From: a virus
DNA: 64,000 nucleotides
UHGV virus genome: UHGV-1455077
Reading direction: 5' to 3' (one strand)
A program made the translations under genes and the position numbers. This document shows positions 43,964 through 56,070 of this stretch, in pieces. Within the stretch, counting starts at the first letter, position 1, and each line of letters opens with the position of its first letter. The notes under the pieces are model-generated. The model worked only from the letters and a program-made list of their open reading frames with translations. It searched no databases and was not told the DNA's origin.

Positions 43964-43991
43964 TGACAAACAAAATTAAATAGTTTATAAA
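43964..43991 (+). promoter_or_regulatory. sigma70-like promoter P4 (its upstream 25 nt duplicate P3)
   Basis: AAATAAATTAAAAAAGTTCTTGACA and TATAAA. Confidence 0.55.
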
Positions 43992-44438
43992 GAACACATA
44001 AAGAACGAAAGTTCTTGTTATAAAAGAAAAAATGGAGACCTTGCTCCTTGATAAACTTCAAATAATCTAAATCACCAAGGGATAACCTGACGACTATATG
44101 GTGTAACAGCAGATATAGAGAACGGTTAGAGGGAGATAGCAAAAACCCCTCAATTTATATAAGTGGTTAATAATGTGGAACTCATAAAAGTAATATTATA
44201 AGTATGCGATAAACGACATAGATGTAAGTGAAAGTAATATGAAATGAACGGAGTTTAAATTCCATAGACCATATGCGAAAAGATTAGGTATGGACACTTT
44301 TTAGTTTATTAACCATTTATATAAATTTATTTGAGCAACAAGATATTCGGGTCTCTACCGAATACGTTAGAACCTTCGGCGATTTTAGCAACAGTTCTTC
44401 ACGATAATTACGATAAGATTATCAAAGATTTTTTTAAT

Positions 44439-45146: not shown

Positions 45147-45491
45147 ATGATAGAATTAAGAAATTGTAAAAAACACGGTTTAACAGAATTTTCATATCAT
45201 AAATCTGGTAATAGATGGAGATGTAAAAAATGTATGGTTGAAGCTGTTAAATTAAGAAGGAAAAAAATTAAAGAAAAAGCTGTCGAATATAAAGGTGGAA
45301 AATGCGAAATCTGTGGATATAATAAATGTATAGATGCATTAGAATTTCATCATTTAAATCCAAAAGAAAAAGATTTTGGAATTGGAGAAAAAGGTTATAC
45401 TCGCAGTTGGATAAAAATTCAAGAAGAACTTGATAAATGTATTATGGTGTGTGCAAATTGCCATAGAGAAATACATAATAAAGATACGTAA
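45147..45491 (+). CDS. HNH homing endonuclease
   Basis: CEICGYNKCIDALEFHHLNPKEK....CANCHREIH is the HNH/Zn motif. It lies inside the tRNA array and ends 2 nt into tRNA-Asn. Confidence 0.65.
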   Translation: MIELRNCKKHGLTEFSYHKSGNRWRCKKCMVEAVKLRRKKIKEKAVEYKGGKCEICGYNKCIDALEFHHLNPKEKDFGIGEKGYTRSWIKIQEELDKCIMVCANCHREIHNKDT

Positions 45492-45875: not shown

Positions 45876-45942
45876 GTGAGAAATTGATTTACATAGACTG
45901 GAAATCCGTGTGTAGAAAGTTCGATTCTTTCCCCATCGACCA
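45876..45942 (+). ncRNA. tRNA-like 3'-half module (T arm, acceptor 3' strand and ACCA) preceded by the conserved GTGAG...TTTACATAG leader
   Basis: GTGAGAAATTGATTTACATAG...GAAAG TTCGATT CTTTC CCCATCG A CCA. No matching 5' acceptor lies upstream. The complementary strand CGGTGGG lies downstream at 45948. Confidence 0.4.
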
Positions 45943-45947
45943 TTTAA

Positions 45948-45975
45948 CGGTGGGTAGCTCATTGGTAGAGCAACG
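45948..45975 (+). ncRNA. tRNA 5'-half-like element (acceptor, D arm: CGGTGGG TA GCTCATTGGTAGAGCA ACG); duplicated at 55886
   Basis: It complements the upstream 3' half perfectly, with one GU. It is followed by A-rich sequence and TTATGTTCCTT, as in the second copy. Confidence 0.4.
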
Positions 45976-46652
45976 TAAAATGATAATCAATTGTTATGTT
46001 CCTTCTTAATTTTAAAAGTTTTGGTAGTTGGAAGTTAAGCTTTTGGGGCAGGAGCAACTTAACTTCCATCTATTGATGCGTGTCCTGATTTAATTAATTA
46101 CCTTCTCGTGGTTCAGGATGTAAGTAAGAATTGCAGTTTTTGACATAAGACAATTCTGAAACTAAAGATTAATATTAAAATGATTTAATTGAAGTATAGT
46201 AAATTAAATAAGTTGATTAAATAAGTGAGCAAGATAGAATCAACTAAAGGTAATAATATGCAGATTATATGCCGAACTACTAACGCTTAAGGTAGATGTA
46301 GGAAATAACCTCGGTAGGGCAATTTAATTGTTAATCTCTTAGAAGTCCTAAAAAAATAAACCGTTTTAAAAAACTGCGTTAAATTAAAATTTTGAAATTG
46401 TTGTTCTCCTTTCATTGTTTTTCATACAACAAGAGTAAAAATATTCTTAGTATCGGGAGAGGTAATATCTTATCTCTCTCTTTTTATAAAAATGCTGGCA
46501 ATATTGGTTCGAATCCAATATGTATATCTTATCCTAAAAATTACTATTATAGTATTAGATTTAAATAGTAATGATATGTCAAATTTAATAAGAACGTGTT
46601 ATTGAATTATATACATTAGTTTAATGGTAGAACCCCAGCATTTCTATAAGAA

Positions 46653-46738
46653 GATTTTTATGGGTGTATAAGTCAACGGTTAGACTAACAGCCTTTTAAG
46701 CTGTAGATTCGGGTTCGATTCCTTTATAATCAATAATG
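46653..46738 (+). pseudogene. degenerate tRNA-Lys(TTT)-like element
   Basis: The D arm AGTC AACGGTTA GACT and the anticodon arm ACAGC CTTTTAA GCTGT are perfect. The T stem and acceptor cannot be paired. Confidence 0.3.
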
Positions 46739-47219
46739 TATAAGAAAAATAACAAATTTCTTTCTTGATAATTAGGTAATGAAATTAATGCCTAATTATG
46801 ACAAGTATTTAACAAAATTTTCTGACTCTAATCAAAGAATTAGTGATTGATAGTTTAAGAATTATCTGTATACGTGAATGACACCCTTTATCAACGTTTG
46901 CATACATAACTGCATAAATCAAGATGGGTTAGGTGGTCGTTTATCCGTTTCACCTTTCATATGATAAACAAAACGAAAAACGGATTGCATTTTTTATAAT
47001 ATTCAAAATGGGTATTAGATAAGATATTGGTAGCTAGATAACCCAATATATGATAAAAACCATTATTGATAAGGTTTAAGATTTCGACCTTTAACCCAAT
47101 GGAAATCCAGTTTATCTATTGTACTTGGTTAACAATAGCGTAGAATTGGTCATTCTCAAAAAGGTACGTAAGCCTTTTTATATTAAATAAATATCTTATA
47201 TAATTTATGAGGTATTAAA

Positions 47220-47642
47220 ATGAAATTAATTGACATATTAGCATTATTTAAAGCTATAAAAAATACTGCTAAAAAATATCATTGGAAAACTGTTGGCACA
47301 ACATTTATGTCTGACCATTTATTATTTGATAGAATTTATGATGATATTGATGATGACCAAATTGATACAATTGTTGAACAATATTATATGGGTCTTGGAA
47401 GAAAAGATATTGATGATTTAGATAATTTAATTGCATTATCTGCTCAATATGAAGGACAGTCTTTTACTGCTTCTTCTGAAAATTTATTAATGATGTATCA
47501 AGAATTAGCAAGAATGATGAATACATTTTTAGTAAATGTTGAAAAATTAAATTTATTAAGAGGTATAAATTCTGAATTAGATAATATTGCATCAACAATT
47601 ACTCAATTATATGGTTTAGTAACTGCAAGATTAATTCAGTAA
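47220..47642 (+). CDS. hypothetical protein
   Basis: 140 aa ORF with a GAGGTATTAAAATG SD, inside the tRNA island. Confidence 0.45.
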   Translation: MKLIDILALFKAIKNTAKKYHWKTVGTTFMSDHLLFDRIYDDIDDDQIDTIVEQYYMGLGRKDIDDLDNLIALSAQYEGQSFTASSENLLMMYQELARMMNTFLVNVEKLNLLRGINSELDNIASTITQLYGLVTARLIQ

Positions 47643-52399: not shown

Positions 52400-53563
52400 A
52401 TGACAAATTACATTATAAATAATAATATCGTCAGAATTTTTGGCGAAGATGAAATCAATATTAAACCAGAAATTCCATTAGGAACATATTTGGTTAAAGA
52501 AAATGAATTAACAGGTGAATTGTTTTTAGAAAGAACAGCAGATTTTGTAAAGCCTGAAAAAATATATGGAGAATGTGAATTCCAATCTGAACGAATTATT
52601 AAAACATTTAAAGACAGACCTAATAATACTGGAGTTCTTTTAAATGGTGCAAAAGGTTCAGGAAAAACATTTTTAACTAAGTATATTTCCTATAAGCTTT
52701 TAAAAGATAATTATCCAACAATAATTATTAATGATATATTTAGTCCAACAAAGTTATCTTTATTAATTCAAACAATTAGTGAACCTTGTGTCATTATTTT
52801 TGATGAATTTGAAAAAATTTATCAATCAAATAAAAAAGATGATTTGCAAAACCCACAGAATGGTTTACTTTCATTGCTTGATGGTTTATTTCAAACTAAA
52901 AAGCTATTCATCTTTACTTGTAATGATGATAGTAATATTTCAGATTTGATGAAGAATAGACCTGGTAGAATTTTTTATAAATTGGAATTTAAAGGAATTA
53001 CTGAAAAAACAATTGAAGAATATTGTGAAGAAAAATTAAATAATAAATCATATATTTCTCAAATTTTTAGTATTCGTAAAATGATTAAAGATTTTACCTT
53101 TGATATTTTACAAGCAATTGTTGAAGAAGTTAATCGTTATAATGAAACTCCTTTAGATGTTGTTAAAATGCTTAATGTAACTCCAGAATCTTTATATGCA
53201 AAATATACTGTATCAATTAAGCCATTAAAGAATCAACAAATTGTAAAATTTGAAAAATCTTTATGGGTAAATCCATTATCTTCAGAAGAAGAATCAGTAT
53301 GGATTTATAGAACTAAAACATCAAATGCAGATGATAATAAATATGTTGTTGAAGACGAGGATATTAAAATTTGTGAGCTTAGTTGTGAAACTGATGATGA
53401 TGAAGATAATAATGTTAAAACAGTTACTGATTATTTTCCAGTATCATTGCTTACAATGGTATCATCTAACAAAAATACTTATGTGTATCAGAATGAAGAA
53501 TATCAGGTTACTTTAACTAAAAAGATTATTGATACTGATGATATGTGGAAGTATGCATTTTAA
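52400..53563 (+). CDS. AAA+ family ATPase
   Basis: Walker A LLNGAKGSGKTFLT and Walker B IIFDEFEKI are present. The start is set to the ATG at 52400, because the 52355 start of the ORF track lies inside tRNA-Met. Confidence 0.5.
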   Translation: MTNYIINNNIVRIFGEDEINIKPEIPLGTYLVKENELTGELFLERTADFVKPEKIYGECEFQSERIIKTFKDRPNNTGVLLNGAKGSGKTFLTKYISYKLLKDNYPTIIINDIFSPTKLSLLIQTISEPCVIIFDEFEKIYQSNKKDDLQNPQNGLLSLLDGLFQTKKLFIFTCNDDSNISDLMKNRPGRIFYKLEFKGITEKTIEEYCEEKLNNKSYISQIFSIRKMIKDFTFDILQAIVEEVNRYNETPLDVVKMLNVTPESLYAKYTVSIKPLKNQQIVKFEKSLWVNPLSSEEESVWIYRTKTSNADDNKYVVEDEDIKICELSCETDDDEDNNVKTVTDYFPVSLLTMVSSNKNTYVYQNEEYQVTLTKKIIDTDDMWKYAF

Positions 53564-53743
53564 AAAATTATTGACATATAAAAAATATTATGTTAATTGT
53601 TATAACAAAAGGGAAAATAAAAAACGCCCCTCTGTTAGAAATATATGAGTAGAAATAACAAGTCGTTAAGAAGATTCGCCTTATCTAACAAGGTTAAAGA
53701 GTTTTTTCCTAAAGATGATTTAGGTTTGATGATAAATCAGTAA

Positions 53744-53772
53744 AAAATATATTGACATATGTTAATTATTAT
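53744..53772 (+). promoter_or_regulatory. sigma70-like promoter
   Basis: TATTGACA, a 17-nt spacer and TATATT. Confidence 0.4.
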
Positions 53773-54347
53773 GATATATTTAATTATATTTTAATTTTAA
53801 GTAATATATTAAAATCATTTAATAATTGGTTGGCAAGACCAATAGGATGCCTTTTTAAGGCAATGAAAGTAAAATCTTTCTTTTAATATATGAAGATAAA
53901 TTATGTCGTGAATGATTTAGTCGGAGAGATAAGCGACTAAGATAAAATAAAAAAATCTCAAATTCCATAGACGTATGGACGGCATAATAAATTAAATTGT
54001 TGTAACTCAAACAATGGGTAGCCTGCCCATAAGAGTATGCTGGATAATCTGAAAAGATTTGAAGGTAGTTGTGAGTAATACGAATCATAAGGTTGAAATA
54101 GCCACGGTTGGCTAACCGTGAGTGACGTAAGAACCAGACAAATCGTACAGATGAATAGGTCTGATGGCTGTATCTGGTTGGGAGTAGTCATTCTCCCCAT
54201 CCATTAAGCAAAGGAGTAATTAACCTTTGTGGGTGTGACTGAATAATGTGTCGTATGAGGGGCTTGTTGGTAGTCAGGAGTCCAACCAATAATTTAATTT
54301 TAACAGTTTGTGGCAGTCGTTCTGTTTAAAAACTCTGCCTTTTTAAA

Positions 54348-54380
54348 CAAACAGATAGTGATTATTAGATTTACATAGTT
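54348..54380 (+). ncRNA. minimal member of the ATAGTGA...TTTACATAG element family (leader plus T-hairpin only)
   Basis: AGATAGTGATTATTAGATTTACATAG TTCGATTC TAT. Confidence 0.3.
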
Positions 54381-54475
54381 CGATTCTATATTTTTTCATA
54401 TAAAAAGGAAAAATGCCAAAAGGGTGGCGTTTACAATCTAATGAATTTTCTTCTGTTTATTTAAAAATTTTCGAT

Positions 54476-54540
54476 AGTGAGTATAAGATTTACATAGACC
54501 AGACTTTTAATCTGACATTTACAAAATCTTATAGATTGTT
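54476..54540 (+). ncRNA. family member with a Lys-like anticodon hairpin (CAGA CTTTTAA TCTG) but no T arm
   Basis: CGATAGTGAGTATAAGATTTACATAGACCAGACTTTTAATCTGACATTTACAAAATCTTATAG. Confidence 0.3.
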
Positions 54541-54560
54541 CTTCGAATTAATACTTTTTT

Positions 54561-54678
54561 GTGAATAGTGAGATATTAGGTTTACATAGCTAAAGTGGTT
54601 AAAGCATTTGACTTGAAATCAAAGTATTGTAGGTTCGATTCCTACTGTAATTTTAACTTAATAAAATGTTCTTTCACA
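54561..54678 (+). ncRNA. Y-RNA-like candidate: leader GTGAATAGTGAG, an embedded cloverleaf tRNA mimic (54580-54653, anticodon-loop TGA, acceptor GTTTACA/TGTAATT, no CCA) and a 3' strand TTCTTTCAC that can pair with the leader
   Basis: D arm GCT AAAGTGGTTAA AGC. Anticodon stem TTTGA/TCAAA with loop CTTGAAA. T arm GTAGG TTCGATT CCTAC. A canonical tRNA-Ser(TGA) is present separately at 54728. Confidence 0.4.
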
Positions 54679-54727
54679 AATTTAATTATTTGACACTTTA
54701 TTATAAATGTTATATAAATAATAATAT

Positions 54728-54813
54728 GGAAGGTAACTGGCTGGATGAAGACACCGACTTGAAATCGGCTGGGCGTAACTGCTTTGGGGGTTCGAGTCCC
54801 TCACCTTCCGCCA
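54728..54813 (+). tRNA. tRNA-Ser (TGA), class II
   Basis: Acceptor GGAAGGT/ACCTTCC. Anticodon stem CCGA/TCGG with loop CTTGAAA. Long variable arm. T arm GGGGGTTCGAGTCCCTC. GCCA at the 3' end. Confidence 0.8.
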
Positions 54814-54820
54814 TTTTTAT

Positions 54821-55513
54821 TTGGTATTGTGGGATATGATAAAAGTAAGTAGAAAAGAATACGAAAATAATCCAGAAAAATATATTATATATTGTACAAA
54901 ATGTAAAAAACCAATAATATTTAAAGATTATAGACATTATTGTGATAGAGTTAATAAAATTAATATTAGACATCATCAACCATTTTGTTCAAAAGAATGC
55001 TCATATGAATATCATAGATTATTTACAAATAAAGGAATTTGTGATTTTTGTGGTAAAGAGTTTATTAGACAAAATGTTTATGGGGATAAAAGACAAAAAC
55101 ATACATTTTGTTCACAAAAATGTTCTGCAAAATATTTTAATAGTCATAAAAAATTTGGTTATAGAAAATCAAAAGCTGAAGAATATATTGTAAGTCAATT
55201 AAAAAAAAGATTATCCGTATTTAAATATTAAAGAAAATGATGTATCAACAATAGGTAAAGAACTTGATATTTATTTACCAGATTTAAATTTAGCATTTGA
55301 AATTAATGGTATAGTTCATTATAAACCTATATATGGAAAAGAAAAGTTAAATAAAATACAAAATAATGATTTTTTTAAAAAAGAATTATGTGAAAGTAAA
55401 AATATTTTATTGACAATAATTAATATAAGTGATATAAAAGTATTTAAAGAGAATTTAATTATAAATAAATATAATTACATTAAAGAAATTATAAGTAATA
55501 CAATGCCACGATA
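54821..55513 (+). pseudogene. Split homing-endonuclease-like gene: the 54821-55231 ORF (Cys/His-rich zinc-finger N-domain) and a +1-frame continuation 55203-55513 (DUF559/Vsr-like PD-(D/E)XK nuclease motif), joined at an A8 homopolymer
   Basis: Frame 0 ends ...QLKKRLSVFKY*. Frame +1 reads KKDYPYLNIKENDVSTIGKELDIYLPDLNLAFEINGIVHYKPIYGKEKL... The D.YLP...LA.E..G..H motif is typical of the endonuclease-domain (DUF559) family. The run AAAAAAAA at 55201-55208 is the junction. Confidence 0.5.
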
Positions 55514-55954: not shown

Positions 55955-56070
55955 GGTGATAGTGATTAATTAGGTTTACATAGCTTAATGGTTAGAGCAT
56001 TGATTTAACACATCAAACGTTACAGGTTCAACTCCTGTTGTAATTAATACCTAATTTACTATTCTTCACC
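55955..56070 (+). ncRNA. Y-RNA-like candidate directly upstream of the Ro60/Rsr operon: a long terminal stem (5' GGTGA.TAGTGA.TTAATTAGG / 3' CCTAATT.ACTAT.TCACC with bulges) enclosing a cloverleaf tRNA mimic (55974-56046; acceptor GTTTACA/TGTAATT, anticodon-loop AAC, no CCA)
   Basis: D arm GCTT AATGGTTA GAGC. Anticodon stem TTGAT/ATCAA with loop TTAACAC. T arm ACAGG TTCAACT CCTGT. It is followed by the strong terminator at 56089. Confidence 0.45.

What the first reader, a model, noticed from the sequence alone, without database searches (positions are those of the whole stretch)
53564..54350. An ~800-nt ORF-free, GC-elevated structured tract inside the tRNA island, and two similar tracts: candidate large ncRNAs
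Region 53564-54350 has no plus-strand ORF, carries promoters at 53560 and 53744, has locally higher GC, and contains many stem-forming segments such as GCCACGGTTGGCTAACCGTGAGTG and GGTCTGATGGCTGTATCTGGTT. Regions 45990-47220 and 43990-44430 are likewise ORF-free and rich in long hairpins (GGAAGTTAAG...CTTAACTTCC at 46040; ATAATTAGG...CCTAATTAT at 46768). Large ornate phage ncRNAs such as GOLLD and ROOL characteristically sit next to tRNA clusters.
Basis: inference. Interest (0 to 1): 0.55.

Follow-up and report, generated by a model that had tools for sequence, protein, structure and literature searches.

The report
Self-pairing manA-like RNA in phage tRNA island
Part of the flagged tract (about 53996-54291) encodes a real, roughly 300-base folded RNA that is conserved in giant gut and rumen phages, sits among their tRNA genes, distantly resembles the cage-forming manA RNA, and carries two self-complementary loops that suggest it also assembles with copies of itself.

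Summary
The finding is partly right. Only about 296 nt of the 787-nt tract (window 53996-54291, + strand, 42% GC against 27%) is a conserved structured RNA. The AT-rich 5' part is a promoter and leader.

Homologues occur once per genome in all 15 Lak megaphages, in a 735-kb phage, and in about 90 metagenomic contigs. They are always co-oriented with tRNA/tmRNA genes and often abut them.

Across 42 distinct sequences, 49 base pairs are 98.7% paired and 37 show compensatory changes. A 4-bp pseudoknot also covaries. No reading frame is conserved.

It is not GOLLD, ROOL, an intron, RNase P or tmRNA. The only Rfam family that touches it is manA (two adjacent hits per element, 15-28 bits, threshold 55.2). 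A reverse model search recovers cyanophage manA loci.

Two hairpin loops are self-complementary in essentially every member (GNN'C, and 6-nt palindromes such as UAAUUA, UCAUGA and UAGCUA). This predicts homotypic kissing contacts. A 2026 preprint shows that manA RNAs form kissing-loop cages.

Best reading: a new, expanded manA-like RNA, processed from the tRNA array, that self-assembles.

The other two tracts are unsupported.

The parts
53996..54291 (+). The whole structured RNA element (about 296 nt): an expanded manA-like RNA.
   Evidence: Conserved in Lak phages, in LR756501 and in about 90 contigs. Covariation is shown. The boundaries come from closing helix P1 and from the end of conservation in alignments A2 and A3. 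G-U pairs (for example U-G in 40-42 of 42 sequences at three pairs) and tRNA co-orientation assign the + strand.
53752..53780 (+). Sigma-70-like promoter, TTGACA-17-TATATT with an extended-10 TG. It lies about 215 nt upstream of the element.
   Evidence: Best promoter-like match in 53400-54900, 11/12. It is conserved in relative L096. Its function is inferred.
53996..53999 (+). P1 5' strand (AUUG). It pairs with 54287-54290 (CAAU) and closes the molecule next to P9.
   Evidence: P1 covaries in A2 and partly in A3. The register in the window itself is inferred.
54006..54035 (+). Module 1. P2 (54006-08/54033-35) encloses the strand CAAACAAU (UGAAUAAU in most members), hairpin P2a (54015-19/54025-29) and UAAG. 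Loop L2a (54020-24, AGCCU) forms pseudoknot PK1.
   Evidence: Covariation of P2 and P2a is shown. The module aligns to the manA 'CUGAAUAA-hairpin-UAAGG' module.
54046..54059 (+). Hairpin with a conserved GAAA tetraloop (AAUCU GAAA AGAUU).
   Evidence: CUGAAAAG is nearly invariant and its stem covaries in A2. It matches the GNRA hairpin of manA.
54078..54095 (+). 5' strand of long-range helix P4 (P4a AUACG, P4b UCAU, P4c GGUUG) with internal-loop strand AUAA. It pairs with 54236-54256.
   Evidence: Covariation of P4b and P4c is shown. P4a is seen in individual sequences, but its alignment register is uncertain.
54101..54123 (+). Hairpin P5. Its loop L5 (54109-54114, UGGCUA) has a self-complementary core GNN'C.
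   Evidence: The stem covaries. The loop core is GGCC, GCGC, GUAC, GAUC, GGCU or GGUC in 42/42 sequences.
54120..54133 (+). Near-invariant junction block GAGUGACGUAAGAA.
   Evidence: Its 13-nt core AGUGACGUAAGAA is invariant in all BLAST-found homologues and in the three newly found, fully covered loci from the independent 3'-anchor scan; the first G of the block is replaced by U in many members.
54132..54179 (+). P6 (54132-38/54173-79) with a large apical region. CAAAUCGU lies at 54139-46, followed by a variable segment, then CUGA (54161-64, candidate PK2 strand), UGGC (54165-68, PK1 strand) and UGUA.
   Evidence: The stem covaries. PK1 is shown, and PK2.
54180..54197 (+). Hairpin P7 (GGGAG UAGUCAUU CUCCC).
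   Evidence: Covariation is shown. It aligns to the manA terminal hairpin in the 5' Rfam hit.
54198..54235 (+). Long hairpin P8: outer helix 54198-202/54231-235 and inner helix 54208-214/54224-230. The 9-nt loop L8 (54215-54223, AGUAAUUAA) contains the 6-nt palindrome UAAUUA.
   Evidence: Covariation is shown. The loop palindromes are UAAUUA, UCAUGA, UAGCUA, UCGCGA and GCUAGC, perfect in 34/42.
54236..54256 (+). 3' strand of P4, including the signature UGACUGAAUAAUGU.
   Evidence: GUGACUGAAUAA is identical to the manA consensus. Pairing is shown.
54266..54286 (+). Terminal hairpin P9 (GUUGG UAGUCAGGAGU CCAAC). The loop UCAG (54274-77) is complementary to CUGA in P6.
   Evidence: Covariation is shown. 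It matches the manA terminal hairpin. PK2 compensations are shown.
54303..54345 (+). Downstream hairpin or pseudoknot plus U-run (AACAG..GGCAG..CUGUU..CUGCC UUUUU). A possible terminator of the RNA in this clade.
   Evidence: GGCAG/CUGCC changes to GGCAA/UUGCC (L096) and to GAUAA/UUAUC (L062) in alignment A3. It is absent in Lak phages, where a tRNA follows within 13-14 nt. Its function is inferred.

Best explanation
Window 53996-54291 (+) is a gene for a stable, independently folding RNA of about 296 nt.

Family. It belongs to a family not in Rfam that occurs once per genome in Lak megaphages and other huge phages of gut and rumen. It is a distant, expanded relative of the manA RNA motif, with two sets of manA signatures in one molecule.

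Biogenesis. It is transcribed on the same strand as the phage tRNA array, here probably from the promoter at 53752-53780. Where tRNAs abut it, it is freed by the enzymes that cut out the tRNAs (RNase P at the 5' end of the tRNA that follows, and 3'-end processing of the tRNA that precedes).

Fold. It forms a multi-helix junction closed by P1 and by the long-range helix P4. An 8-nt segment in the P6 apical region pairs with two hairpin loops: L2a (PK1) and probably L9 (PK2).

Assembly. Two further loops, L5 and L8, are self-complementary. I propose that they make homotypic kissing contacts between copies. The RNA would then act as an RNA-only homo-oligomer (dimer, ring or cage), as shown for manA, ROOL and GOLLD.

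Shown versus inferred. Shown: conservation, secondary structure, PK1, loop self-complementarity, tRNA-array context, absence of coding potential, and sub-threshold similarity to manA. Inferred: processing, oligomerisation and any cargo. What the assembly does is unknown; enclosing or concentrating translation components such as tRNAs is a guess.
For: Conservation. blastn finds one copy in each of 15 Lak genomes and in LR756501 and LR756503. Pattern scans add 20 viral, 3 genome-bin and about 68 metagenome loci, on contigs of up to 553 kb. An independent 3' anchor recovers the full element in 13 of 15 loci (all contain the family); the other two (L112, L114) are truncated at the locus edge.

Structure. 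With 42 sequences below 93% identity, 49 pairs are 98.7% paired. Thirty-seven pairs show double changes, giving 498 compensatory cells against 125 in shuffles. Controls with the 3' partner of each pair slid by 1-3 columns are about 40% paired. An extra helix is seen.

Pseudoknots. PK1 is 97.6% paired, with 8 or more complementary combinations. PK2 is fully complementary in 38/42, with compensations AUGA/UCAU, GUGA/UCAC and AGGA/UCCU.

Not coding. No frame stays open across members.

Context. Of 88 copies, 77 lie in loci that hold tRNA/tmRNA genes. All 717 such genes are on the element's strand and none on the other. In 63 of 88 a tRNA lies within 300 nt, and many lie 0-30 nt away on both sides.

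manA link. manA is the only Rfam family hitting the element, as two adjacent hits per copy. It shares GUGACUGAAUAA, the GAAUAA-hairpin-UAAG module, a GNRA hairpin and the terminal UUG-GGUA..CAGGAAUCC hairpin. In a model of the 3' domain, the five best non-self hits across 90 kb all fall in cyanophage manA elements. nhmmer gives the same result.

Self-complementary loops. The palindrome positions are 95.2% complementary against 77.8% in shuffles (0/500), with 34 compensatory cells against 8.9. All four possible GNN'C cores are used, as are five different 6-nt palindromes.

Precedent. manA RNAs form 8-, 10- and 60-mers through kissing loops and a GNRA-receptor contact (bioRxiv 10.64898/2026.07.01.735769). 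ROOL and GOLLD form cages and lie near phage tRNA islands (PMC12286853).
Against: - All manA hits are far below the curated threshold (15-28 bits against 55.2). The similarity rests on two short blocks plus shared helices, so convergence or motif sharing is not excluded.
- In solved manA assemblies the kissing loops are heterotypic (L5-L7', L8-L9'). Here they would be homotypic.
- The cyanophage manA hairpin that aligns with P8 has a GACG tetraloop, not a palindrome.
- Self-complementary loops are indirect evidence. No expression, end-mapping or biophysical data exist for this RNA.
- PK1 and PK2 could each be intra- or intermolecular.
- Homologues were partly collected with patterns built from the conserved blocks, which inflates apparent invariance.
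- Alignments are MAFFT alignments, not structure-based. The registers of P1, the GAAA hairpin and P4a are uncertain.
- In the window the nearest tRNAs are 1.6 kb upstream and 274 nt downstream, so processing by tRNA enzymes is less direct here.
- The manA cage work is an unreviewed preprint.
Confidence: 0.6

Rival explanations
1. A cis-regulatory element or riboswitch, as manA was first classed. It would bind a metabolite and control transcription or processing of the tRNAs or genes downstream. The tandem manA-like halves would act as cooperative aptamers.
For: Rfam types manA as cis-regulatory, and Weinberg 2010 listed it as a riboswitch candidate (PMC2864571). The junction nucleotides are highly conserved, as in ligand pockets. 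In the window clade, a covarying hairpin plus U-run follows the element at 54303-54345 and could be a regulated terminator.
Against: In Lak and many other phages, complete tRNAs lie 13-27 nt upstream and 0-14 nt downstream, which leaves no room for an expression platform. What lies downstream differs between clades (tRNA-Met, Ile, Ser, Asn, tmRNA or ORFs). manA RNAs themselves are now reported to be cage-forming. Self-complementary loops have no role in a monomeric aptamer.
Confidence: 0.12
2. A stable RNA that works as a monomer and binds a phage or host protein, as a scaffold or decoy in the manner of 6S or Y RNAs. The loop palindromes would then reflect protein recognition or intramolecular contacts, not self-assembly.
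For: The precedent of T4 rnaC and rnaD shows stable RNAs of unknown function encoded in a phage tRNA cluster. Y-RNA-like elements occur in the same arrays. No direct evidence of oligomers exists.
Against: The central loop bases change freely while staying self-complementary: four GNN'C cores and five hexamer palindromes. That pattern is expected for RNA-RNA pairing and not for a sequence-specific protein site. No conserved neighbouring protein gene was found.
Confidence: 0.2
3. A member of a known large RNA class that the models missed: GOLLD, ROOL, a group I/II intron, RNase P RNA or tmRNA.
For: The location in a phage tRNA island is typical of GOLLD and ROOL. tmRNAs lie next to the element in L043 and L098. 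Rfam's intron model is known to be insensitive (my own knowledge).
Against: No hit to any of these models, even at E<=10 on 331-1501 nt or in 40 related loci. The helix order does not fit the group I topology, because P3' would follow P4' directly (sequence reading). The P4 motifs of RNase P and the tRNA-like ends of tmRNA are absent. Flanking tRNAs are complete, so the element is not a tRNA intron.
Confidence: 0.03
4. No functional RNA at all: a GC-rich spacer, a decayed tRNA remnant, or a small antisense protein gene (80-aa ORF at 53958-54200 on the minus strand).
For: Minus-strand ORFs of 70-140 aa overlap the element in many loci. tRNA-derived fragments are common in this island.
Against: No frame stays open across members (minimum 8-26 aa). 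Compensatory changes keep 98.7% pairing, including G-U pairs that would be A-C on the other strand. Conservation spans phages whose flanks are unalignable.
Confidence: 0.02

Closest known systems
manA RNA motif (Rfam RF01745; Weinberg et al. 2010, PMC2864571; cryo-EM preprint 10.64898/2026.07.01.735769)
   Same: - Phage-borne.
- A closing helix P1 lies next to a terminal hairpin, UUG-NNGGUAnnCAGGAAUCCNN.
- It has the exact block GUGACUGAAUAA.
- It has the internal-loop module 'GAAUAA strand - hairpin - UAAG strand'.
- It has a GNRA hairpin, and a stem with internal loops that contains CUGUA.
- Loop-loop complementarity is a conserved theme.
- It is the only Rfam family that hits the element, and reverse searches return manA loci.
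   Different: - About 296 nt against about 190 nt.
- Two adjacent sub-threshold manA hits per molecule, 15-28 bits against a gathering score of 55.2.
- An added four-hairpin domain (P5-P8) closed by a long-range helix, in which the GAAUAA/UAAG loop is used in inverted order.
- The invariant blocks GAGUGACGUAAGAA and CAAAUCGU are absent from manA.
- The loops are self-complementary (homotypic). The kissing pairs reported for manA are heterotypic.
- It is found in tRNA arrays of huge gut and rumen phages, whereas manA lies in intergenic regions after gp23, pstS or regA of marine T4-like cyanophages.
GOLLD and ROOL RNAs (Kretsch et al. 2025, PMC12286853)
   Same: They are ornate phage or prophage RNAs of unknown function, often beside tRNA islands. 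GOLLD env-38 lies downstream of a tRNA-Met. They work as RNA-only homo-oligomers held by kissing loops. Here the element is embedded in tRNA arrays, often next to tRNA-Met, and has self-complementary loops.
   Different: There is no sequence or structure match to either Rfam model. The element is much smaller (about 300 nt against about 580 to more than 800 nt). Its helices and conserved blocks differ. Oligomerisation here is predicted, not observed.
Phage T4 rnaC and rnaD (species 1 and 2 stable RNAs)
   Same: They are small stable RNAs of unknown function, encoded directly after a tRNA in the phage tRNA cluster on the same strand (annotation of NC_000866). From my own knowledge, they are matured with the tRNAs.
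   Different: There is no detectable sequence similarity (nhmmer). They are 139 and 119 nt long and have tRNA-like 3' ends. A resemblance of the rnaD 5' hairpin (GAAA-CCGGGUCGCUACCGG-UAAG) to module 1 is only visual.
HIV-1 dimerisation initiation site type kissing loop (motif level; my own knowledge)
   Same: L8 is a 9-nt hairpin loop made of two 5' bases, a 6-nt self-complementary sequence and one 3' base. This is the layout that drives homodimer kissing in HIV-1 genomic RNA. Variants keep the palindrome while changing it.
   Different: The molecule and its biology are unrelated. The flanking loop bases are not always purines. Dimerisation was not tested.

Membership tests
manA RNA (RF01745) | Score at or above Rfam's gathering threshold (55.2 bits) with the curated covariance model | tested here: not met
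   The window scores 23.5 bits. The best score in the family is 28.4 + 28.0 bits, as two adjacent hits in L085. No manA hit appeared at the gathering threshold in the window or in the 20 related loci scanned at that threshold.
manA RNA (RF01745) | Signature sequence and structure modules: GUGACUGAAUAA, GAAUAA-hairpin-UAAGG, a GNRA hairpin, and the terminal hairpin UUG-GGUA..CAGGAAUCC next to closing helix P1 | tested here: met
   The alignments to the manA consensus show them. The reverse CM and nhmmer searches hit exactly these blocks in four cyanophage manA loci.
manA RNA (RF01745) | Single unit of about 190 nt with the manA helix order (hp0, P1, P2, P3 with three hairpins, P4, P5) | tested here: not met
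   The element is about 296 nt. It gives two manA-like halves, a long-range helix P4 and extra hairpins P5 and P8.
manA RNA (RF01745) | Location in putative 5' UTRs of cyanophage or marine bacterial genes | tested here: not met
   The element lies inside tRNA/tmRNA arrays of huge gut and rumen phages. Cyanophage manA loci hold no adjacent tRNA.
manA RNA (RF01745) | Assembly into pentamer-based closed homo-oligomers through intermolecular kissing loops (preprint) | not testable with these tools
   The support is only indirect: two self-complementary loops and a conserved GAAA tetraloop.
GOLLD / ROOL | Match to the Rfam covariance model of the family | tested here: not met
   There is no hit at the gathering threshold or at E<=10. 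Both profiles are in Rfam according to PMC12286853.
GOLLD / ROOL | Phage-encoded and close to tRNA islands | tested here: met
   All 717 neighbouring tRNA/tmRNA genes are co-oriented with the element. In 63 of 88 copies a tRNA lies within 300 nt.
Group I / group II intron, RNase P RNA, tmRNA | Covariance-model match and family-specific core (P3-P9 topology; domain V; P4 pseudoknot motifs; tRNA-like ends plus a tag ORF) | tested here: not met
   There are no Rfam hits. ARAGORN finds no tmRNA in the window. Flanking tRNAs are intact.
Riboswitch / cis-regulator | An expression platform (terminator or RBS-sequestering stem) between the aptamer and the regulated gene, plus a consistent downstream gene class | tested here: not met
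   tRNAs abut within 0-30 nt in many clades, and the downstream neighbours vary. A hairpin plus U-run follows the element only in the window clade and in L062.
Stable RNAs of phage tRNA clusters (T4 rnaC/rnaD type) | Encoded in the tRNA cluster on the tRNA strand and matured as a stable RNA | tested here: inconclusive
   The position and strand criteria are met. Maturation and stability cannot be tested here. There is no sequence similarity to rnaC or rnaD.

The most novel reading that the evidence does not exclude
This would be a third lineage of self-assembling phage RNA tied to tRNA islands, alongside GOLLD and ROOL. It would be a huge-phage-specific, doubled manA-like RNA that is cut out of the tRNA precursor and builds a closed RNA-only particle. 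Two homotypic two-fold kissing contacts (L5-L5' and L8-L8') would hold the particle together, with PK1 and PK2 possibly also acting between copies. That geometry differs from the pentamer-based manA cages. The particle might enclose or organise phage tRNAs or other translation components during infection by Lak-type megaphages.
Probability: 0.4. Interest if true: 0.85.

Novelty: new variant of a known kind. Interest (0 to 1): 0.72.

Why it matters
It adds a well-supported new RNA gene to Lak megaphages and other huge phages. Their intergenic regions are largely unexplained, and the papers that described them do not report this RNA.

It links the manA motif, long filed as a cyanophage 5'-UTR element and only in 2026 reported to form RNA cages, to the tRNA-island context already known for GOLLD and ROOL. 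This suggests that cage-forming or multimeric RNAs are a recurrent accessory of phage tRNA arrays.

The self-complementary loops give a direct, cheap experimental test: transcribe 296 nt, then run native gels, SEC-MALS or cryo-EM. They also offer a natural series of orthogonal kissing sequences that could serve RNA nanostructure design.

Rfam's manA model misses the family, so it is currently invisible to annotation pipelines.

Tried and rejected
- Rfam. I ran the gathering threshold on the whole window and permissive scans on the region and on 44 related loci. Nothing but tRNAs, tmRNAs, sub-threshold manA and sub-threshold YrlA/6A appeared.
- Protein coding. ORFs in six frames, and openness of each frame across 42 homologues under standard, TAG-sense, TGA-sense and TAA-only codes: no frame is conserved.
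- Conserved partner protein. All-against-all blastp of flanking ORFs in 17 loci, plus Pfam, found only HNH endonucleases, an AAA ATPase, zinc-finger proteins and unknowns. Nothing recurs next to the RNA across clades.
- T4 rnaC/rnaD homology: no nhmmer hit.
- Bacterial origin. A scan of one genome for each of 185,579 species gave only three metagenome-bin contigs that look like phage, plus one chance match.
- Cultured phages. Three divergent queries found only Lak records and LR756501/LR756503.
- Full-length covariance model. Not attempted, because about 300 positions exceeds the build limit. A 95-position 3'-domain model was used instead.
- The GAAA hairpin, P1 and P4a could not be scored cleanly because of MAFFT register shifts. 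A first regex extraction for P4a failed.
- A pairing between UGAU in P6 and AUCA in the P7 loop was considered and dropped, because no covariation supports it (reading).
- Literature. No description of this RNA was found. The supplements of the 10,006-candidate phage RNA catalogue are not held, so prior listing there cannot be excluded.
- The two other tracts have no distant homologues.
Full report
1. WHAT THE WINDOW IS

The window is 26.6% GC. Its 44.4-60.3 kb stretch carries 21 tRNA genes by ARAGORN, plus further tRNA matches by Rfam, all on the + strand. The DNA around the finding is identical to IMG/VR contig UViG_3300045988_152892 (216,815 bp) and to human-gut metagenome contigs. blastn against 50,697 phage records links one short piece of the flagged tract, and nothing else in it, to all 15 Lak megaphage genomes and to the 735-kb phage LR756501/LR756503.

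2. CHECKING THE OBSERVATION

The GC rise is real but covers only about 54000-54300. Window 53996-54291 is 42.2% GC, among the top 9 of 1275 windows of that size. The stretch 53564-53995 is 23.8%.

Both quoted stem segments exist and turn out to be parts of conserved helices.

The plus strand has only ORFs of 27-44 aa. The minus strand has ORFs of 77 and 80 aa.

A strong sigma-70-like promoter match lies at 53752-53780.

Folding the single sequence gives z = -2.5 on both strands, which proves little by itself.

3. A CONSERVED ELEMENT

The Lak and LR756501 matches cover window 54047-54302 at 69-86% identity, while the flanks do not align.

Exact-pattern scans built on the invariant block (A)GTGACGTAAGAA-N3-14-CAAATCG found three sets of loci:
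- 20 loci in IMG/VR, most on contigs of 180-553 kb;
- 3 real loci among 185,579 species genomes, all metagenome bins, one on a 283-kb contig;
- about 68 real loci in metagenomes, largely rumen and gut.

A scan with an unrelated anchor (GTGACTGAATAA...GGTAGTCAGGA) returned 15 loci. Thirteen carry the complete element and two are truncated at the locus edge; all belong to the family. This shows that the central blocks are not conserved merely because I selected for them.

In all there are 88 copies carrying the 5′ and 3′ signature motifs (86 of them full-length), 62 distinct sequences among the full-length copies and 42 representatives below 93% identity. There is one copy per complete genome.

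4. IT IS A STRUCTURED RNA, READ FROM THE + STRAND

RNAalifold on 14 sequences and then on 42 sequences predicts the same helices. On the 42-sequence alignment:
- 49 pairs are 98.7% paired;
- 37 pairs show changes on both sides;
- 498 cells are compensatory, against 125 +/- 10 in shuffles;
- sliding the partners by 1-3 columns drops pairing to 38-45%.

A further helix (54198-202/54231-235) covaries. Closing helix P1 and an extension of the long-range helix are seen, but with alignment-register noise.

Near-invariant G-U and U-G pairs would be A-C on the other strand. All 717 neighbouring tRNA/tmRNA genes share the element's strand.

No reading frame stays open across members under the standard code, or with TAG and/or TGA read as sense. 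The recurrent antisense ORFs are therefore by-products of the GC-rich conserved sequence.

5. ANATOMY IN THE WINDOW

- P1: 53996-99 with 54287-90.
- Module 1: P2 54006-08/54033-35 enclosing CAAACAAU, hairpin P2a 54015-29 and UAAG.
- GAAA-tetraloop hairpin: 54046-59.
- Long-range helix P4: 54078-95 with 54236-56. Its internal loop pairs AUAA opposite GAAUA.
- Inside P4: hairpin P5 (54101-23), the near-invariant GAGUGACGUAAGAA, P6 (54132-38/54173-79) with a large apical region, hairpin P7 (54180-97) and long hairpin P8 (54198-235).
- Terminal hairpin P9: 54266-86.

A search for covarying column pairs outside the nested structure found a pseudoknot. The P2a loop (54021-24) pairs with UGGC (54165-68) in the P6 apical region. 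It is 97.6% paired, with combinations such as GCCA/UGGC, GACA/UGUC, AGCA/UGCU, GAUG/CAUC, GAUA/UAUC, GCUA/UAGC and GCCG/CGGC.

The four bases just upstream (CUGA, 54161-64) are complementary to UCAG in the P9 loop in 38 of 42 sequences. Compensations are AUGA/UCAU (three sequences), GUGA/UCAC and AGGA/UCCU; four sequences carry single mismatches. One 8-nt strand therefore appears to bind two loops.

6. WHAT IT IS NOT, AND WHAT IT RESEMBLES

GOLLD, ROOL, introns, RNase P and tmRNA give nothing, even at E<=10 on the element alone.

The single family that matches is manA (RF01745):
- 23.5 bits (E = 3e-4) on window 54209-54296;
- in other members, two adjacent hits: a 5' hit of about 190-220 nt and a 3' hit of about 90 nt;
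- the best scores are 28.4 + 28.0 bits, always under the 55.2-bit threshold.

The alignments show what is shared: the exact GUGACUGAAUAA, the 'GAAUAA strand - hairpin - UAAG strand' module, a GNRA hairpin, a stem with internal loops containing CUGUA, and a terminal hairpin UUG-NNGGUAnnCAGGAAUCCNN next to the closing helix.

I located real manA RNAs in T4-like cyanophages by blastn with the consensus. I then ran the test in reverse. A covariance model of this family's 3' domain was searched over 90 kb (four cyanophage loci, the T4 tRNA region and the whole window). It gave the self hit at 97 bits, and then five hits that all lie inside the four manA elements (E 0.09-1.5). nhmmer gave the same collinear pair of blocks in 4 of 4 loci.

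I take this as a probable distant relationship (about 0.75), or at least shared building blocks, but not as membership.

The differences are substantial. The size, the doubled signatures, the P5-P8 domain and the blocks GAGUGACGUAAGAA and CAAAUCGU all differ, as does the context. Cyanophage manA follows gp23, pstS or regA and has its own -10 box just upstream, with no tRNAs nearby.

7. CONTEXT

Of the 88 copies, 77 lie in loci that also hold tRNA or tmRNA genes. All 717 of those genes are co-oriented with the element. In 63 copies a tRNA lies within 300 nt. In Lak and several rumen clades, complete tRNAs sit 13-27 nt upstream and 0-14 nt downstream. A tmRNA follows the element in L043, and a permuted tmRNA lies nearby in L098.

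This leaves no room for a riboswitch expression platform. It argues for a stable RNA released together with the tRNAs, as for T4 rnaC and rnaD, which the T4 record annotates directly after tRNA-Arg. T4 rnaC and rnaD show no sequence similarity to this family.

In the window itself the element is less tightly packed. The promoter lies at 53752, followed by a leader of about 215 nt with small hairpins that covary only against a close relative. Then comes the element, then a covarying hairpin plus U-run at 54303-45, then tRNA-like fragments, and the next tRNA at 54579.

No conserved protein neighbour was found.

8. THE CLUE TO MECHANISM

Two hairpin loops are self-complementary in every member.

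- L5 has the form U-N-GNN'C-A-A. Its core is GGCC (22 sequences), GCGC (8), GUAC (6), GAUC (1), or the wobble forms GGCU (2) and GGUC (2). All four possible GNN'C palindromes are therefore used.
- L8 is a 9-nt loop holding a 6-nt palindrome: UAAUUA, UCAUGA, UAGCUA, UCGCGA or GCUAGC. The palindrome is perfect in 34 of 42. Six of the rest keep a 4-nt palindrome or wobble core, and two have an imperfect core.

When scored as 'pairs', these positions are 95.2% complementary, against 77.8% in shuffles (0 of 500). They give 34 compensatory cells against 8.9, and 5-52% when slid.

A 4- or 6-nt palindrome inside a hairpin loop cannot pair within the loop. The simplest reading is pairing with the same loop of a second copy. 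The L8 layout is that of the HIV-1 dimerisation loop (my own knowledge).

[quoted passage not shown] These are built from pentamers held by intermolecular kissing loops and a GNRA loop-receptor contact (10.64898/2026.07.01.735769). ROOL and GOLLD, also phage RNAs 'often near tRNA islands', form RNA-only cages (PMC12286853).

I therefore propose that this RNA acts as a homo-oligomer. Two distinct two-fold contacts per protomer would favour rings, dihedral particles or cages. This step is an inference. The function of the assembly is unknown.

9. THE OTHER TWO TRACTS

Tracts 43990-44430 and 45990-47220 have no blastn match among phage records. A relative at about 89% coding identity conserves them in rearranged blocks at 86-92%, which is no better than neighbouring genes. 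A relative at about 79% identity keeps only the tRNAs.

The permissive Rfam scan shows tRNAs and one notable sub-threshold hit: YrlA (Y-RNA-like) at 45890-46003, 42.5 bits against 69, E = 2.5e-7. By eye its sequence is a tRNA-like module with the acceptor stem closed by a loop.

These tracts are not shown to be large ncRNAs.

10. NOVELTY AND CAVEATS

Neither the Lak paper nor the huge-phage paper mentions this RNA. Rfam 15 lacks it. Literature searches found no description. An unnamed entry in the 10,006-candidate phage catalogue cannot be excluded.

Caveats:
- the manA link is sub-threshold;
- homologue collection used conserved blocks;
- the alignments are not structure-based;
- there are no expression or biophysical data;
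- the manA cage work is a preprint.

VERDICT

This is a real, previously undescribed, expanded manA-like RNA of huge phages, embedded in tRNA arrays and probably self-assembling.

Noticed in passing
window 45885-46003 (+): There is a sub-threshold Y-RNA-like (YrlA, RF02553) match: 42.5 bits against a gathering score of 69, E = 2.5e-7. The sequence reads as a tRNA-like module in permuted order: T-arm GAAAG-UUCGAUU-CUUUC, then CCCAUCGACCA, a short loop, then GGUGGGUAGCUCAUUGGUAGAGC. Neither ARAGORN nor the Rfam tRNA model calls a tRNA there. Similar YrlA-like hits occur in related loci (L054, 45.7 bits).
   Followed up: partly
window 45885, 46557, 54367, 54486, 54578, 55725, 55820, 55972 (+): The 12-mer RGRTTTACATAG recurs eight times with at most one mismatch. 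Two copies are the 5' ends of called tRNAs (54579-54654 and 55974-56046). The others head tRNA-like fragments, for example 54367-54392, where the motif runs straight into TTCGATTCTAT. These may be decayed or unconventional tRNA copies in the island.
   Followed up: partly
window 54728-54809 (+) and 54579-54654 (+): A long-arm tRNA-like gene ending in GCCA has anticodon loop CUUGAAA (anticodon UGA). ARAGORN and the Rfam tRNA model both miss it; it appears only as a 30.7-bit tRNA-Sec hit. The 76-nt tRNA just upstream carries the same UGA anticodon but lacks the long variable arm expected of a serine tRNA.
   Followed up: no
window 54303-54345 (+): Interleaved stems AACAG..GGCAG..CUGUU..CUGCC are followed by UUUUU, directly after the RNA. 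The second stem covaries: GGCAA/UUGCC in L096 and GAUAA/UUAUC in L062. It could be a terminator with a long loop, a small pseudoknot, or a pair of alternative structures.
   Followed up: partly
window 53700-53745 and 53826-53977 (+): Upstream of the promoter lies a conserved CCUAAAGAUGAUUUAGG hairpin (CCUAAU..AUUAGG in L012). Its DNA can also be read as the conserved C-terminus (..DLGLMINQ*) of a 32-aa ORF at 53645-53743. In the leader, three small hairpins covary between the window and L096. One of them gives a sub-threshold '6A RNA' hit at 53913-53967 (29 bits against 41.2).
   Followed up: partly
L100 3034-3119 (-), a related rumen locus: An 86-nt stretch in the phage tRNA array matches bacterial 23S rRNA positions 2128-2213 above Rfam's threshold (53.8 bits, E = 7e-13). 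No other rRNA sequence lies around it.
   Followed up: no
L042, L045, L065, L077, L094 (60-120 nt downstream of the element): The motif UACCGAGAUGCCNCUAUGUGCAA recurs, preceded by a short hairpin. It is conserved across several rumen clades and may be another small RNA or a processing signal.
   Followed up: no
window 45147-45491 (+) and 54821-55231 (+); L036 2666-3379; L100 5481-6308: HNH-endonuclease and FCS-type zinc-finger ORFs are scattered through the tRNA islands. The window ORF at 54821-55231 looks like the N-terminal zinc-finger part of the longer HNH proteins found in relatives. This fits homing-endonuclease traffic shaping these arrays.
   Followed up: partly
L105-L108 (cyanophage manA loci, about 2470-2720): Each cyanophage manA RNA begins 6-8 nt after a TATAAT-like box (in two loci with a TTGACA at -35) and ends in a U-rich run. 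It therefore looks like a self-contained transcription unit and not a 5' UTR.
   Followed up: no
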